From: Candidatus Undinarchaeota archaeon
GTDB lineage: Archaea > Undinarchaeota > CAZWFW01
Length of the DNA: 64,000 bases
NCBI GenBank assembly: GCA_964633445.1
Contig: CAZWFW010000001.1
Span: 6,339-70,338 of the forward strand
Direction: 5' to 3'
In this document: one piece after another, positions 32,598 to 62,570 of the stretch
Layout of the letters: every line of letters starts with the position of its first letter
Position numbering within the stretch: position 1 is the stretch's first letter
Position numbers and translations under genes: made by a program
Notes under the pieces: model-generated
Told to the model about the DNA's origin: nothing
Database searches by the model: none
The model's input: only the letters and a program-made list of their open reading frames with translations

Positions 32598-33089
32598 TCA
32601 AATAACTTTACCACCTTGATACCTACCATTGTATTTCTCAGCTTTTCCTTCAACTTTTTCAAAAACAATTTGAGCAATTTTGGCAAACCTTTTAACTCTA
32701 AATTCGTAATTTGAAAAATTCTTAATACCAAAAGTTAATGCGCCTTTATAACCAGGATCTACTAATGCTGTAAAAATATAAACTCCGCATCTAAAAAGCG
32801 TAGATCTTGGTAAAATTCTTGCAATTAAGTTACTTGGAATATTAACCTTTTCAACAGTTTTTACAAGATAATACTCATTTGGTTTAATTACATAAACATC
32901 CCCACAAATCTCTTCAACTTCTGGAAGCTTTCTTGAATTAATTCCAAGTCTAGCATCACTTTTTATCTTATACAGAACATCAAGTCTCAAATCATAGCCT
33001 GCTCCTTGCAAATTTTCTTTCTTAAAATTCTCTATTAAAGGAGGGTTTTCCGCAACTAACTTTTCAATTTCACTTTTTGCAAGTATCAT
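32598..33089 (-). CDS. dcd: dCTP deaminase / dUTPase-fold protein
   Basis: 163 aa. GYDLRL and the Tyr/Gly-rich beta-jelly-roll motifs (IFTALVDPGYKGALTFGIKN) are typical of the Dcd/Dut family. Confidence 0.65.
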   Translation of the reverse strand: MILAKSEIEKLVAENPPLIENFKKENLQGAGYDLRLDVLYKIKSDARLGINSRKLPEVEEICGDVYVIKPNEYYLVKTVEKVNIPSNLIARILPRSTLFRCGVYIFTALVDPGYKGALTFGIKNFSNYEFRVKRFAKIAQIVFEKVEGKAEKYNGRYQGGKVI

Positions 33090-33139
33090 ATAGTTATTTT
33101 AGGTTTTTTGAAAAATTTATCTTCATGTTGTTTGCAAGA

Positions 33140-33370
33140 CCCAATGCGTAAGCGTGGGGATACGCAATGGGAGGCGGGTGGGAAATATTTAAATACTTTG
33201 AAGTTGTATAAACAGTAATCTCGCAACAGCCGTTAAGGCCGGACAGCCCGTGAGGATAACGGGTAGTGGCCTCGTGAACAGGCCTGTGAGGATAAGGGTG
33301 GTAGAAATCCACCAAACTCCTCACGAAGCTCCTTTCGTAAGGGAGGGGCAGTTTACAGCCCTGTTTTTCC
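33140..33370. ncRNA. GC-rich intergenic island 1: candidate structured RNA and/or regulatory repeat module (family not identified)
   Basis: About 230 nt of G+C-rich sequence in an AT-rich genome. Strong hairpins: CCCAATGCGUA..UACGCAAUGGG, GGCC-UCGUGAACA-GGCC, CCCG-UGAGGAUAA-CGGG and GGUGG-UAGAAAU-CCACC. A plus-strand TATA-like AAAAATTTAT lies at 33111-33120 and a T5 run at 33364-33368. The strand is not certain. Confidence 0.35.
33169..33198 (-). promoter_or_regulatory. consensus archaeal TATA box (TTTAAATA) module oriented toward dcd, shared with the hypC upstream region
   Basis: The minus strand reads AAGTATTTAAATATTTCCCACCCGCCTCCC. This is 28/30 identical to 62418-62446 on the plus strand. 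TATA at 33186-33195 lies about 100 nt upstream of the dcd ATG. Confidence 0.4.
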
Positions 33371-34004
33371 AATATTTCTTGAGAAGCTCTCCAGAAGCAT
33401 ATGCACTAAGAAGTGCGAAAAGTGAAAAATTAACTCTTCTTTCAAAGCTGCCAATTAATTTCACTTCTACAAATTCCTTTCTTTCAAAAGCTTTGACAAG
33501 AATTCTACAAACCTTTCTATTGTTTAAATAACCCTCCAAATAAATAAACTCGTTTTTTAAAATTTTTATAGTGTAGGATGTTTTTTTGATTTTACCCATT
33601 AAAAATCTAAATTCGCTATTCTTTATCAAAAGTTTTGCGAATTGTTTTCTTAGTGAAAGCAATATCGGATTTCCACTCCCACCAAATTCCAAAATAACGT
33701 CCTTTAAAGACTTTTTAGTAGTAAGAATTATTTTACCCTCCAGATATACAGGTATCGAAAAAAGTAGATAATAGGAGGTAGAAACAGCATCCAGCCAGAT
33801 CTCGTAATAACAATGTTTACAGAATAGAAAAAGTGAAAATGAAGATAGAAAATATCCAGGGGAATGAGGAATACCATTTTTAATGAAAGGGAATATTAGA
33901 GCATAGATACATGAATGCAACAAAAATAGATATGTTGCTAAAAATAGTTTAAGCAAACCAAAAATTATAAACAGAGAATCGAGAAGATAAATCAAACTTA
34001 CCAA
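33321..34004 (-). CDS. hypothetical protein with N-terminal TM segments
   Basis: 227 aa. The hydrophobic N-terminus is followed by a basic soluble domain. The last about 18 codons run into GC island 1. Confidence 0.4.
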   Translation of the reverse strand: MVSLIYLLDSLFIIFGLLKLFLATYLFLLHSCIYALIFPFIKNGIPHSPGYFLSSFSLFLFCKHCYYEIWLDAVSTSYYLLFSIPVYLEGKIILTTKKSLKDVILEFGGSGNPILLSLRKQFAKLLIKNSEFRFLMGKIKKTSYTIKILKNEFIYLEGYLNNRKVCRILVKAFERKEFVEVKLIGSFERRVNFSLFALLSAYASGELLKKYWKNRAVNCPSLTKGAS

Positions 34005-34151
34005 TAAAAGTGCAAAAGTAGCATAAAGGTATTTTTAAAATAATTTCTCTTAATTCAAAAATTAATAAATAAAATGTTAAATAGTAAAAGCTTAAGTATA
34101 TGCCCAATAGGAAAATCTTGTAAATTTTGCTGAAGTTCATAAATTTCCATA

Positions 34152-44085: not shown

Positions 44086-45207
44086 TTATTTTTTAAATTT
44101 TCTAATCTCCTCTAATTTTTTGCTGAATTCCTTTAGAGAATTAGCAAATCCCTCAACACTTGCTGTAACTTCCTCAGCCCCAGCTGCGTTCTCTTCAGCT
44201 GCTGCAGCAATTTCTGTTATTGTTGTCGAAACTTGTTGTATATTTTTAGCTTGTTGTTGTTGGGATGCAGAAACTTGCTGCATTTGTGCAGCAATTCTCT
44301 GAATGGCTTCAGCAATAGTTCTAAATGCTAGTAAAGCATTAGCAGATGTTTTGACAGCCTTTGTAACACTACTTTTGGCTATTCCTGCAGATTCTACAGA
44401 TTTAGCGCTATAAGTTTGTATTTCTCCAAGTAAATCGGAAATTTTTGTTGCAGCAACTCTTGAATTTTCAGCCAACTTTCTAATCTCATCAGCAACTACT
44501 GCGAATCCTCTACCAGCTTCACCAGCTCTTGCAGCTTCTATAGCAGCATTTAATGCTAGTAAGTTAGTTTGTAATGATATATCTTTTATAGTTTCGACAA
44601 TTTTTCCAATTTCCTGACTTTTACCACCCAAATTTTTAATTATATCAGAAAGCTCCACAACAATTTTCTCGCTATTTTTAAGCTCCTCTATAGCTTTTTC
44701 AGCGCCTTCCTTACCCCTAGTAGCACTTTTACTTATATCAACTGCAAGTTTTTCTGCTTTCTGAATACTTGAGCTAATTTGTTGTGAAGCTGCTGAAAGC
44801 TCTATAATTGCTTTTCTAATGTCCTCAATTTGAATAGATTGATTTTGAGCATTTTTTGCCATTTGCTGAGTAACAGCATTAATTTCCTTGGAAACATCGA
44901 CAATATTTGAAAAAGACTTCATCATCTTTTCTATTTCGCTGGAAATACCTTCTTTTACTTTCACTTCAATAGAGTCTAAAACATCGTTTAAAGCTTGTGC
45001 AAAAACTTTGAAATTAGGATCGGGAATCTCATCTGGGTTTACTCTTGCCTTTATATTTCCCTCCTTGTATATTCTAAGCAAAACTTCACATATCTTACCA
45101 ATACTTTCACTAATTTCAGAGGCTACTCTTCCCACTTCCTCAGGTTTGTTAACATGTTCAAAAACTTTAGCTTTTAACTCGTTTATGTCCAAAAATTTCT
45201 CAGTCAT
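44086..45207 (-). CDS. methyl-accepting chemotaxis protein, soluble (no TM helices)
   Basis: Highly conserved signalling hairpin [34 protein letters not shown]. Methylation-helix heptads. No hydrophobic segment. Confidence 0.85.
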
Positions 45208-45299: not shown

Positions 45300-45480
45300 T
45301 ATTATCTTCATGTTACTTGCAAGATCCCAGTAGCCCACTCTTAACGAGAGTGGTATGCGGGGACTGTGAGCTGGAGGGTGTATGAGCTTAGAGCGTAAAG
45401 CTCTGGGTGAATGTCTAAACTTGCAAGCCATGAAAAGATTAAGGATTGGATTGAAAGTGTGTACGGAAAACAATCAACTC
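45300..45480. ncRNA. GC-rich intergenic island 2: candidate structured RNA (family not identified)
   Basis: About 180 nt GC-rich stretch between two minus-strand genes. Its 5' end CTTCATGTTACTTGCAAGATCCCAGTAG aligns (about 25/30) with the 5' end of island 1, CTTCATGTTGTTTGCAAGACCCAATGCG. Both are preceded by AAAAAT-TTAT-like TATA elements. Hairpin CCACUC-UUAACGA-GAGUGG. Confidence 0.3.
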
Positions 45481-62319: not shown

Positions 62320-62417
62320 CTGTGAACTACCCACCGTTTTTAATGGGTGGCTTCCCCCAGATAAACACCACCACGGCTGGGGTCGGGCTGTTCACGAGCC
62401 CCGATGCCACCCATCAA
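62320..62417. other. GC-rich intergenic island 3: structured element upstream of the hypC promoter
   Basis: Nested helices: GGGUGGC...GCCACCC (62345-51 / 62406-12) enclose CCCCAG..CUGGGG and GGGCU-GUUCACG-AGCCC. The GUUCACGA hairpin loop is the same as the one in island 1 (33268-33284, opposite strand). Confidence 0.3.
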
Positions 62418-62446
62418 AGGTATTTAAATATTTCCCACCTCCTCCC
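62418..62446 (+). promoter_or_regulatory. consensus archaeal TATA box (TATTTAAATA) module oriented toward hypC
   Basis: AGGTATTTAAATATTTCCCACCTCCTCCC is nearly identical to the minus-strand module at 33169-33198. TATA at 62421-62430 lies about 140 nt upstream of the hypC ATG. Confidence 0.4.
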
Positions 62447-62570
62447 TAATTCACCCACCGATTGAAATCAGGGGTACTCTTAGCGACATTTTTATGGAAA
62501 TATTTATACTCTGCAAGACATTATTTTAACCTCTCAAATTTAGAAATACAGGGAAGTCAATGAAAAATTT

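What the first reader, a model, noticed from the sequence alone, without database searches (positions are those of the whole stretch)
33100..33375. GC-rich intergenic island 1 with multiple hairpins and two embedded promoter-like elements
The 230-nt dcd-upstream intergenic region is strongly G+C-rich in an AT-rich genome. It is built from stable hairpins:
- an 11-bp stem CCCAATGCGTA/TACGCAATGGG;
- GGCC-TCGTGAACA-GGCC;
- two copies of a (C)GTGAGGATAA(C/G)GGG motif;
- GGTGG-TAGAAAT-CCACC.
On the plus strand it is preceded by AAAAATTTAT and ends with a T5 run, consistent with a plus-strand small RNA. On the minus strand it contains a perfect TTTAAATA box pointing at dcd. I searched for the RNase P P4 motif (GGAAAGUCCGG) and the SRP helix-8 GGAA/AGCA motifs and did not find them, so the family is unknown.
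Basis: seen in the sequence. Interest (0 to 1): 0.6.

Follow-up and report, generated by a model that had tools for sequence, protein, structure and literature searches.

The report
Gene-less mini transposon carrying guide RNA
The GC-rich hairpin island upstream of dcd is a 236-bp remnant of a TnpB-type (IS200/IS605) transposon that has lost its nuclease gene but keeps its end hairpins, its promoter and its guide-RNA (omega RNA) scaffold; this is a known kind of mobile-element relic, not a new cellular RNA gene.

Summary
Window 33121-33356 is GC-rich (45-50% against 35%), is built from stable hairpins, and matches no Rfam family.

It is not an orphan cellular sRNA. Its left part matches the left end and promoter found just upstream of tnpB genes in Ca. 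Alkanophaga and in vent metagenomes. That part comprises a TTAT flank, CTTCATGTTGTTTGCAAGA, a hairpin, a G-rich box and the palindromic TATA TATTTAAATA.

Its right part (33239-33356) matches the last ~40 codons of those tnpB genes plus the right end, which is where the omega RNA (the guide RNA of TnpB) is encoded.
- A covariance model built from 23 other copies, without the window, hits it on the plus strand only (100 bits, E 7e-24).
- Of 39 base pairs, 17 show compensatory changes.
- A pseudoknot next to the guide position also covaries.

The window holds no tnpB. The closest relative genome lacks the element at this locus. A second mini element of a sister subfamily lies at 62322-62508 (minus strand).

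The element is therefore a PATE-like, tnpB-deleted IS200/IS605 derivative. It probably still makes an omega-like RNA from the retained tnpB promoter. It shows signs of decay: stem 1 is damaged and the terminal GTTCAC has become GTTTAC.

Such elements are already described (Meers 2023), so this is a new member of a known kind, of modest interest.

The parts
33117..33120 (+). TTAT flank: conserved insertion-site / TAM-like motif immediately 5' of the left end (TAM = the short motif TnpB needs next to its target)
   Evidence: All 13 left ends recovered are preceded by TTAT (or TTTAT) and then diverge upstream.
33121..33356 (+). The whole mini element (236 bp): a tnpB-less IS200/IS605 (IS1341-type) derivative
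   Evidence: The boundaries are the points where similarity to all other copies starts and stops. tblastn with two full TnpBs finds only the C-terminal tail here.
33121..33139 (+). Left-end terminal segment CTTCATGTTGTTTGCAAGA
   Evidence: Conserved as C(T/C)(T/C)C..GTTGCTTGCAAGA in L013, L027-L041 and window island 3.
33140..33171 (+). Left-end subterminal hairpin.
   Evidence: I5. Stem sequences differ between copies but keep pairing, e.g. TTCC/GGGA, TTGC/GCGA, ATGC/GCGT.
33172..33195 (+). G-rich box AGGCGGGTGGGAAA followed by the palindromic TATA box TATTTAAATA (33186-33195): the tnpB promoter of the parent element
   Evidence: 17-19 nt are identical in island 2 and in four Ca. Alkanophaga loci. 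In intact copies the box lies 24-25 nt upstream of the tnpB ATG. Promoter function is inferred.
33196..33238 (+). Remnant of the tnpB leader, the internal-deletion junction (about 33218-33238) and the predicted transcription start (about 33219-33222)
   Evidence: Loose similarity to the L013 leader CTTTAAGCTATTAAAAAATAATAAA. The junction is not resolved to the base. The start site is inferred from archaeal TATA-to-start spacing.
33239..33356 (+). Omega-RNA scaffold, which is also the last ~40 codons of tnpB plus the right end. Stem 1 (33247-33263) is degenerate; stem 2 is GGCCU/AGGCC (33268-33284); stem 3 is GUGAGGA/UCCUCAC with an apical hairpin (33285-33325); stem 4, the right-end hairpin, is 33328-33349; the tail is AGUUUAC (33350-33356).
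   Evidence: Model R1, built without the window, scores 100 bits, E 7e-24, full length, plus strand only. blastp to the L013 TnpB C-terminus gives 24/38 identities, E 3e-12. Covariation.
33274..33279 (+). Pseudoknot 5' strand: GUGAAC in the loop of stem 2
   Evidence: Pairs with the 3' terminal hexamer; covaries across copies.
33351..33356 (+). Pseudoknot 3' strand and right-end terminus: GUUUAC here, GUUCAC in nearly all other copies
   Evidence: The C-to-U change keeps an RNA G-U pair but departs from the conserved DNA terminus.
33357..33372 (+). Flank just outside the right end, AGCCCTGTTTTTCCAA: the position of the omega-RNA guide. The T5 run at 33365-33369 would probably terminate archaeal transcription after 9-13 nt.
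   Evidence: The sequence beyond ...GTTCAC is unrelated in every copy. The guide role follows from the established TnpB mechanism (PMC10097598, PMC10055086) and is inferred here.

Best explanation
The island is a 236-bp non-autonomous, tnpB-deleted derivative of an IS200/IS605-family (tnpB-only, IS1341-type) insertion sequence. It is a PATE-like mini element, inserted after a TTAT 31 nt upstream of the dcd start codon.

Its left third is the transposon left end: a terminal segment, a subterminal hairpin, a G-rich box and the TATA box that drives tnpB in intact copies. An internal deletion removed about 375 codons of tnpB. That joined the promoter almost directly to the last ~40 codons plus the right end, which is the segment encoding the omega-RNA scaffold. 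The scaffold has four stems and a pseudoknot immediately 5' of the guide.

Shown here: homology of both ends to intact elements, the element boundaries, absence of tnpB from the window, the plus-strand RNA structure with covariation, and absence of the element from the closest relative's locus.

Inferred: the retained promoter starts a plus-strand transcript near 33220. That transcript folds into an omega-like RNA and runs into the flank AGCCCUGUUUUU..., where the T5 run probably truncates the guide. With a TnpB supplied in trans, this RNA would direct cleavage of the vacated site TTAT|AGCCCTG... and so favour retention of the element. Without a TnpB it does nothing useful.

The damaged stem 1, the mutated terminal GTTCAC>GTTTAC and the sub-family score (100 bits against 130-157) suggest the copy is decaying.
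For: - A 19-nt left-end core search found the same module directly upstream of tnpB genes in Ca. Alkanophaga. L013 matches Pfam OrfB_IS605 (3e-21) and Cas12f1-like_TNB (2e-22); L017 matches TNB (3e-18).
- The DNA of the L013 tnpB 3' end plus right end aligns motif for motif with 33246-33356. The plus frame there matches the TnpB C-terminus (24/38 identities, E 3e-12).
- tblastn finds only these C-terminal tails in the whole 64-kb window.
- A metagenome scan recovered 25 copies: at least 13 with intact tnpB, plus decayed and truncated ones.
- Boundaries are shared by all copies: TTAT| at the left...GTTCAC| at the right.
- Covariation: 17 of 39 pairs carry double changes; 97.9% of cells pair, against 37-56% when the partner is slid; 0 of 500 shuffles reach the observed score. 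G-U pairs fix the strand.
- A covariance model built without the window hits 33239-33356 on the plus strand at 100 bits, E 7e-24.
- The pseudoknot covaries: GUGACC/GGUCAC, GUCAAC/GUUGAC and GUGAGC/GCUCAC. This matches the ISDra2 omega-RNA design of four stems plus a pseudoknot next to the guide (PMC10097598).
- The closest relative (dcd 88% identical) keeps the AspRS-RecJ...dcd gene order but lacks the element.
- Gene-less PATE-like IS605 elements that encode omega RNAs are described in the literature (PMC10055086).
Against: - There is no expression data, so transcription, RNA ends and strand usage in vivo are untested.
- No tnpB or tnpA gene lies in the window, and none can be assigned to this genome. 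A protein partner is therefore unproven.
- The T5 run 9-13 nt into the guide position would leave a guide shorter than the 16 nt used by ISDra2 TnpB.
- Three of 11 consensus pairs in stem 1 are broken, and the conserved terminus is mutated.
- Other mini copies keep different amounts of scaffold (island 2 about 95 nt; L040 about 90 nt with no promoter). What is retained may simply be the two transposon ends rather than a working RNA.
- The invariance of stem 3 (GUGAGGA/UCCUCAC) is partly by construction, because the metagenome search pattern required it.
- No empty-site allele was found.
Confidence: 0.85

Rival explanations
1. Inert fossil. The element is what the best explanation says, but it is no longer transcribed into anything functional and can no longer transpose. 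The hairpins are inherited structure under no current selection.
For: - Its covariance-model score of 100 bits is at or below those of visibly decayed copies (L027 110.5, L042 109.8) and well below copies attached to intact tnpB (130-157).
- Stem 1 has 3 of 11 consensus pairs broken.
- The terminal GTTCAC has mutated to GTTTAC.
- There is no tnpB in the window.
- The T5 run falls inside the guide position.
Against: - The promoter core is identical over 17-19 nt to that of intact elements.
- Stems 2-4 and the pseudoknot are intact; the terminal mutation preserves RNA pairing as G-U.
- The sequence is identical in four independent assemblies, though these are near-clonal and so weakly informative.
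Confidence: 0.35
2. Promoter or leader donation to dcd. After the insertion, the palindromic TATA box (or read-through across the element) drives dcd on the minus strand. The left-end hairpin and the C-rich stretch then form a ~100-nt dcd 5' leader.
For: - TATTTAAATA reads identically on both strands.
- All three islands in the window have their left end facing the start codon of the downstream gene: dcd, hypC and an MCP-like gene.
- Removing the element leaves dcd only 4 nt behind an upstream ORF, so dcd may have lost an operon promoter.
Against: - In intact elements the box serves tnpB in the opposite direction.
- The upstream ORF has no homologues at all and may not be a gene.
- An AT-rich TATA-like ATAAATTT remains 24-31 nt upstream of the dcd ATG, as in the relative L005.
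- Structure covariation and G-U pairs favour the plus strand.
Confidence: 0.1
3. An independent host small-RNA gene of an unknown family, unrelated to mobile DNA.
For: GC-rich islands in AT-rich hyperthermophile genomes often mark structural RNA genes (general knowledge). There is no Rfam match. The fold is stable.
Against: Both halves are homologous to the ends of tnpB-carrying insertion sequences, including protein-level similarity to the TnpB C-terminus. The element is absent from the syntenic site in the closest relative. It is present in unrelated phyla with different flanks.
Confidence: 0.02

Closest known systems
PATE-like / MITE-like gene-less IS200/IS605 derivatives (Haloquadratum PATEs, PMC3119063; Geobacillus ISGst PATE-like elements, PMC10055086)
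   Same: No protein gene. Left and right ends are shared with tnpB-carrying copies. Both ends have subterminal hairpins. A conserved short target motif flanks the left end, with no terminal inverted repeats or target duplication. The omega-RNA region is retained and would need a TnpB in trans.
   Different: The host is an Altiarchaeota archaeon, and the IS subfamily is shared with Ca. Alkanophaga. Here the internal deletion places the tnpB promoter about 20 nt from the scaffold, making in effect a promoter-omega-RNA fusion. Mobility of this particular copy is not shown.
ISDra2 TnpB omega RNA (reRNA) of Deinococcus radiodurans (PMC8612924, PMC10097598)
   Same: Encoded at the 3' end of tnpB and running through the right end. 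The scaffold is about 116-127 nt with four stems and a pseudoknot that pairs the nucleotides just 5' of the guide with an upstream segment. The guide is the flank outside the right end. The TAM equals the left-end flanking motif.
   Different: No sequence similarity. The TAM-like motif is TTAT rather than TTGAT. The pseudoknot's 5' strand lies in a hairpin loop. No cognate protein is at this locus, and there is no biochemical evidence.
Archaeal IS200/IS605 omega RNAs and tnpB sense-overlapping transcripts (PMC12558985; Sulfolobus TnpB, PMC10640517, PMC11043419)
   Same: Archaeal tnpB-only elements that produce structured RNAs from the tnpB 3' end.
   Different: Those RNAs come from intact tnpB genes. 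This copy has lost the gene.
TldR / exapted TnpB guide-RNA systems (bioRxiv 10.64898/2026.09.22.753285)
   Same: An omega-type RNA present outside an active transposon context.
   Different: TldR systems keep a (nuclease-dead) TnpB-like protein gene next to the guide RNA, and the guide targets a promoter. Neither feature is seen here.

Membership tests
IS200/IS605-family non-autonomous (PATE-like) element | Left and right ends homologous to those of copies that carry tnpB | tested here: met
   The left-end module lies upstream of tnpB in L013, L017 and L029-L041. The right end matches the tnpB 3' end.
IS200/IS605-family non-autonomous (PATE-like) element | Subterminal hairpins at both ends; no terminal inverted repeats or target-site duplication | tested here: met
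   Left end CCCAATGC-GTAA-GCGTGGGG; right end CTCCTTTC-GTAA-GGGAGGGG. The flanks ...AAATTTAT and AGCCCTG... are not duplicated.
IS200/IS605-family non-autonomous (PATE-like) element | Conserved short target motif immediately 5' of the left end | tested here: met
   TTAT precedes all 13 left ends examined.
IS200/IS605-family non-autonomous (PATE-like) element | No transposase or nuclease ORF inside the element | tested here: met
   The element is 236 bp. tblastn detects only 38 C-terminal residues of TnpB.
IS200/IS605-family non-autonomous (PATE-like) element | Presence/absence polymorphism, or several copies with different flanks (mobility) | tested here: inconclusive
   The family has 25+ copies, all with different flanks. 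One mini type occurs twice on one contig with the same junction (L028:1248-1382 and L041:11615-11749). The closest relative lacks the element, but its whole locus differs. No exact empty site and no second copy of this particular mini element was found.
IS200/IS605-family non-autonomous (PATE-like) element | A Y1 TnpA transposase in the same genome to mobilise it | not testable with these tools
   Only 64 kb of the genome is available, and it contains no tnpA.
TnpB omega RNA (reRNA) | Encoded at the tnpB 3' end and running through the right end, on the sense strand | tested here: met
   In at least 13 intact copies the model region overlaps the last ~40 codons and ends at the right-end boundary. 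The window hit is on the plus strand only.
TnpB omega RNA (reRNA) | Conserved secondary structure supported by covariation | tested here: met
   17 of 39 pairs carry double changes; 0 of 500 shuffles reach the score; slid controls pair in 37-56% of cells against 97.9%. Stem 3 is invariant partly because the search pattern required it.
TnpB omega RNA (reRNA) | Pseudoknot involving the nucleotides just 5' of the guide | tested here: met
   GUGAAC pairs with GUUCAC in 98.4% of cells, with three compensatory variants. Design as in PMC10097598.
TnpB omega RNA (reRNA) | A variable 3' guide taken from the flank outside the right end | tested here: inconclusive
   The flanks differ in every copy, as expected. 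In the window a T5 run lies 9-13 nt into the guide position, and the RNA 3' end is unknown.
TnpB omega RNA (reRNA) | Bound by a cognate TnpB and directs TAM-dependent DNA cleavage | not testable with these tools
   This needs biochemistry. No tnpB is in the window.
Rfam families (SRP RNA, RNase P RNA, H/ACA, C/D, HgcC-G and others) | Covariance-model score at or near the gathering threshold | tested here: not met
   There are no hits at gathering thresholds. At E<=10 only chance-level fragments appear, the best 17.7 bits against a 61-bit threshold. The same holds for islands 2 and 3.
Conserved host sRNA gene | Conserved at the syntenic locus in related genomes | tested here: not met
   L005 (dcd 88% identical, same gene order) has two different genes and an unrelated AT-rich 139-nt spacer. 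L007-L010 also lack the element.

The most novel reading that the evidence does not exclude
The promoter-omega-RNA fusions might be selected stand-alone guide-RNA genes rather than accidental debris. Independent internal deletions have produced them repeatedly: at least four different junctions, in two IS subfamilies and two archaeal phyla (island 1, island 2, L015/L023, L028/L041). Each keeps the tnpB promoter next to the scaffold. Such genes could be used by a TnpB or a TldR-like protein encoded elsewhere. At the same time the element's palindromic TATA box could have been co-opted to drive the adjacent host gene (dcd, hypC).
Probability: 0.08. Interest if true: 0.6.

Novelty: new member of a known kind. 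Interest (0 to 1): 0.3.

Why it matters
The result removes a false lead: a GC-rich "orphan sRNA" in an AT-rich thermophile genome turns out to be mobile-element debris.

It also documents a TnpB/omega-RNA family that is absent from Rfam. For this family there is now a well-supported secondary structure with a pseudoknot, a TTAT TAM-like motif, defined ends, and a distribution across hydrothermal archaea of different phyla (Altiarchaeota, Ca. Alkanophaga). That is useful for annotation and for mining thermostable TnpB editors.

The recurring promoter-scaffold fusions are natural examples of the modular, trans-acting omega RNAs proposed by Meers et al.

Tried and rejected
- Rfam at gathering thresholds on the whole window and at E<=10 on all three islands gave nothing.
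- I inspected the sequence by hand for SRP helix 8, RNase P CR-I/CR-V, K-turn/K-loop, H/ACA pocket plus ACA, C/D boxes and a tRNA-like T-arm. None fitted, and I dropped these ideas once homology to tnpB appeared.
- Synteny: I fetched the dcd loci of relatives (L005-L010) hoping for orthologous intergenic regions to use for covariation. The element is absent there.
- tRNA-gene upstream regions were compared to derive a promoter consensus. They were too heterogeneous to help.
- Empty-site search through homologues of the minus-strand ORF 33321-34004 found no homologue at all, so the ORF may be spurious. Contigs carrying the RecJ-like gene gave no empty-site allele.
- I first read three assemblies ending at 33290/33299 as a repeat-induced break. 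The ENA contig from the other side ends near 33890, so the whole 33300-33890 stretch fails to assemble. The cause is unresolved.
- The guide-like 16-mer has no other good match in the window.
- In intact copies no covarying structure was seen 5' of GUAGCC.
- Small-ORF readings of the conserved left-end segment (MLFARPNA / MLLARSQ) were considered and dropped as coincidental.

Full report
**Observation**

The region is as described. It has 46-50% G+C in a window that averages 35.3%. The three tRNA genes in the window are about 68% G+C, typical of a thermophile.
- The 11-nt arms at 33140-50 and 33161-71 are 10/11 complementary.
- GGCC-TCGTGAACA-GGCC lies at 33268-84.
- There are two exact GTGAGGATAA copies, at 33250 and 33286.
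- GGTGG-TAGAAAT-CCACC lies at 33297-313.
- AAAAATTTAT lies at 33111-20 and the T5 run at 33365-69.

TTTAAATA is part of a perfect palindrome, TATTTAAATA (33186-95). Both strands fold better than shuffled sequence. The plus strand is more stable and has a well-defined centroid structure (-88.7 against -76.8 kcal/mol). Rfam finds nothing at gathering thresholds, and nothing meaningful at E<=10.

**Context**

dcd lies at 32598-33089 on the minus strand (Pfam DCD, 1e-35). Its homologues place the organism in Altiarchaeota from hydrothermal samples. Four near-identical assemblies carry the same island.

The closest distinct genome (L005, dcd 88% identical) keeps the AspRS / RecJ-like ... dcd / 311-aa gene order. 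Between RecJ and dcd it has two other genes and an unrelated AT-rich 139-nt spacer. More distant relatives also lack the island. The island is therefore not a conserved host locus.

**Paralogues in the window**

Two other GC-rich intergenic islands are related:
- Island 2 (62322-62508, minus strand, upstream of hypC) shares GGGAGGnGGGTGGGAAATATTTAAATAC and the GGsCUCGUGAACAGsCC hairpin. Its 5' hairpin differs in sequence but still pairs.
- Island 3 (about 45304-45411, plus strand) shares only TTAT-CTTCATGTTnnTTGCAAGA.

**Identification**

I scanned species-representative genomes for the 19-nt core shared by islands 1 and 2. This hit four loci in two Ca. Alkanophaga species.

In L013 and L017 the module sits 24-25 nt upstream of a 408-419-aa ORF. 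The module consists of the terminal segment, a hairpin, the G-rich box and the TATA box. The ORF matches Pfam OrfB_IS605 and Cas12f1-like TNB. Its nearest solved structures are TnpB and Cas12f chains.

The L013 protein ends ...VRIGGSGGVNPPVRIRLAHPSKQTPHEAPCVSEG. The plus frame through island 1 reads ...VRITGSGLVNRPVRIRVVEIHQTPHEAPFVREG (24/38 identities, E 3e-12). At the DNA level the L013 tnpB 3' end and right end align with 33246-33356 motif for motif. tblastn of both TnpBs against the whole window finds only these C-terminal tails, at island 1 and island 2.

Island 1 is therefore a transposon left end joined to a transposon right end, with tnpB deleted.

**The family**

A metagenome scan with a pattern from stem 3 recovered 25 copies in 21 loci:
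- At least 13 have intact tnpB (75-100% identical to L013).
- Several are frameshifted or internally deleted.
- Several are truncated to the last 30-60 codons, like the window copy.

Every left end is preceded by TTAT, and upstream of that the sequences are unrelated. Every right end stops at ...GGGGTAGTTCAC, followed by unrelated sequence. A conserved target motif, subterminal hairpins at both ends, and no inverted repeats or target duplication together form the IS200/IS605 signature.

In the window the element spans 33121-33356. The TTAT is at 33117-20 and the terminus is GCAGTTTAC.

Deleting the element in silico joins a minus-strand ORF to ...KNRAINFSKNLK*, which ends 4 nt before the dcd ATG. 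That ORF has no Pfam match and no homologue anywhere, so I do not rely on it.

**RNA structure**

I aligned 24 copies over the last ~135 nt. The alignment gives four stems with 39 pairs:
- 17 pairs show compensatory double changes.
- 97.9% of cells pair, against 37-56% when the partners are slid.
- No shuffle out of 500 reaches the observed covariation score.
- Several positions are conserved G-U pairs, which would be A-C mismatches on the other strand. The RNA is therefore on the tnpB-sense (window plus) strand.

One caveat: stem 3 (GUGAGGA/UCCUCAC) never varies, partly because my search pattern required it.

A covariance model built from the 23 other copies hits window 33239-33356 on the plus strand only (100 bits, E 7e-24, full length), and nothing else in the window.

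The invariant loop GUGAAC of stem 2 is complementary to the terminal GUUCAC. Divergent copies carry GUGACC/GGUCAC, GUCAAC/GUUGAC and GUGAGC/GCUCAC, so this pairing covaries too (98.4% of cells paired, 0 of 500 shuffles). Four stems plus a pseudoknot immediately 5' of the guide is the architecture solved for the ISDra2 omega RNA (PMC10097598).

In intact copies I found no covarying structure upstream of GUAGCC. Island 1 therefore keeps essentially the whole scaffold.

**State of this copy**

Signs of decay:
- Three of 11 consensus pairs in stem 1 are broken. The first GTGAGGATAA copy lies here.
- The terminal hexamer is GUUUAC. This keeps a G-U pair in the RNA but departs from the conserved DNA terminus.
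- Its score is below those of copies attached to intact tnpB (130-157 bits) and close to those of visibly decayed copies (about 110).

Intact features: the promoter core is identical to that of intact elements over 17-19 nt.

By archaeal TATA-to-start spacing, and by the 24-25-nt distance to the ATG in intact copies, a plus-strand transcript should start near 33219-33222. That is about 20 nt before the scaffold. The T5 run at 33365-69 falls 9-13 nt into the guide position.

**Mechanism**

Shown: this is a tnpB-less IS200/IS605 derivative that carries a left-end promoter and an omega-RNA scaffold.

Inferred from the established TnpB pathway (PMC8612924, PMC10055086): if transcribed, and if a cognate TnpB is made elsewhere in the cell, the RNA would guide cleavage of the vacated site TTAT|AGCCCTG.... 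Repair from a copy that still holds the element would then restore it. Without a partner the RNA is inert.

[quoted passage not shown] The kind of element is therefore already known.

**Rival explanations**

- An inert fossil is quite possible.
- Promoter or leader donation to dcd through the palindromic TATA box is possible but unsupported.
- A free-standing host sRNA is contradicted by the homology.

**Other mini elements**

Other minis have different deletion junctions:
- Island 2 has the L017-type left end fused to the last ~95 nt of the right end.
- L015 and L023 are minis in Alkanophaga.
- L028 and L041 share one junction but have different flanks.
- L040 has no promoter.

This shows recurrent formation and at least some mobility of minis. 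It also shows that the amount of scaffold retained varies. I therefore do not claim selection for the RNA itself.

**Verdict**

It is wrong about the nature of the element, which is a mobile-element remnant rather than a host sRNA gene, and about the promoters. This is a new member of a known kind, of modest interest.

Noticed in passing
window 62322-62508 (minus strand): A second tnpB-less mini element from a sister subfamily lies between the end of a 344-aa gene and hypC (true start 62571, MCLGVPGK). An L017-type left end (62508-62417) is fused directly to the last ~95 nt of the L017-type right end (62415-62322), which ends GTAGTTCAC. It is about 85-90% identical to the Ca. Alkanophaga element. 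No Rfam hit.
   Followed up: partly
window 45300-45411 (plus strand): A third island begins with TTAT|CTTCATGTTACTTGCAAGA, the same left-end start as island 1. It continues with its own hairpins (CCACUCU-UAACG-AGAGUGG; AGAGC-GUAA-AGCUCU) and ends ...GGGTGAATGTC, followed by a second CTTGCAAG. It may be a minimal PATE of a more divergent subfamily. Neither model R1 nor Rfam matches it.
   Followed up: partly
window 33121-33356, 45304-45411, 62322-62508: All three elements lie antisense to their flanking genes, with the left end 31-95 nt from the start codon of the downstream gene (dcd, an MCP-like gene at 44086-45207, hypC). This may reflect TTAT targets in AT-rich promoter regions, or the strand bias of IS200/IS605 insertion. 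Untested.
   Followed up: no
window 33290-34150; L001-L004, L047: Three independent assemblies end inside the element at 33290/33299. The ENA contig coming from the RecJ side ends near 33890. The JGI contig has a 2-nt indel near 33392 and a ~164-nt indel near 34057. This AT-rich stretch (22-28% G+C) is strain-variable or hard to assemble, and its only long ORF (33321-34004, minus strand) has no homologue in 5.8 billion proteins.
   Followed up: partly
L013, L015, L017, L023 (Ca. Alkanophaga) compared with the window (Altiarchaeota): The same two IS subfamilies, with left-end cores identical over 17-19 nt, occur in archaea of different phyla from hydrothermal settings. Host contigs range from 35% to 54% G+C. 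This suggests recent horizontal spread of these elements.
   Followed up: partly
L028:1248-1382 and L041:11615-11749 (both from contig Ga0256834_1000033): This 100-kb contig carries five copies of the family. Two of them are mini elements with the same deletion junction but different flanks and a different stem-4 sequence, which is evidence that a mini element has itself been mobilised.
   Followed up: partly
L025:4150-4300: A truncated copy (the last 58 codons plus the right end) is preceded not by a left end but by another structured, repeat-like sequence: CATCCTCCCCGCACTAAAGTGCGAGGATTCTCAGCGGGGAGGTTTGCAGTCCTCGACCGGGAC. Its nature is unknown.
   Followed up: no
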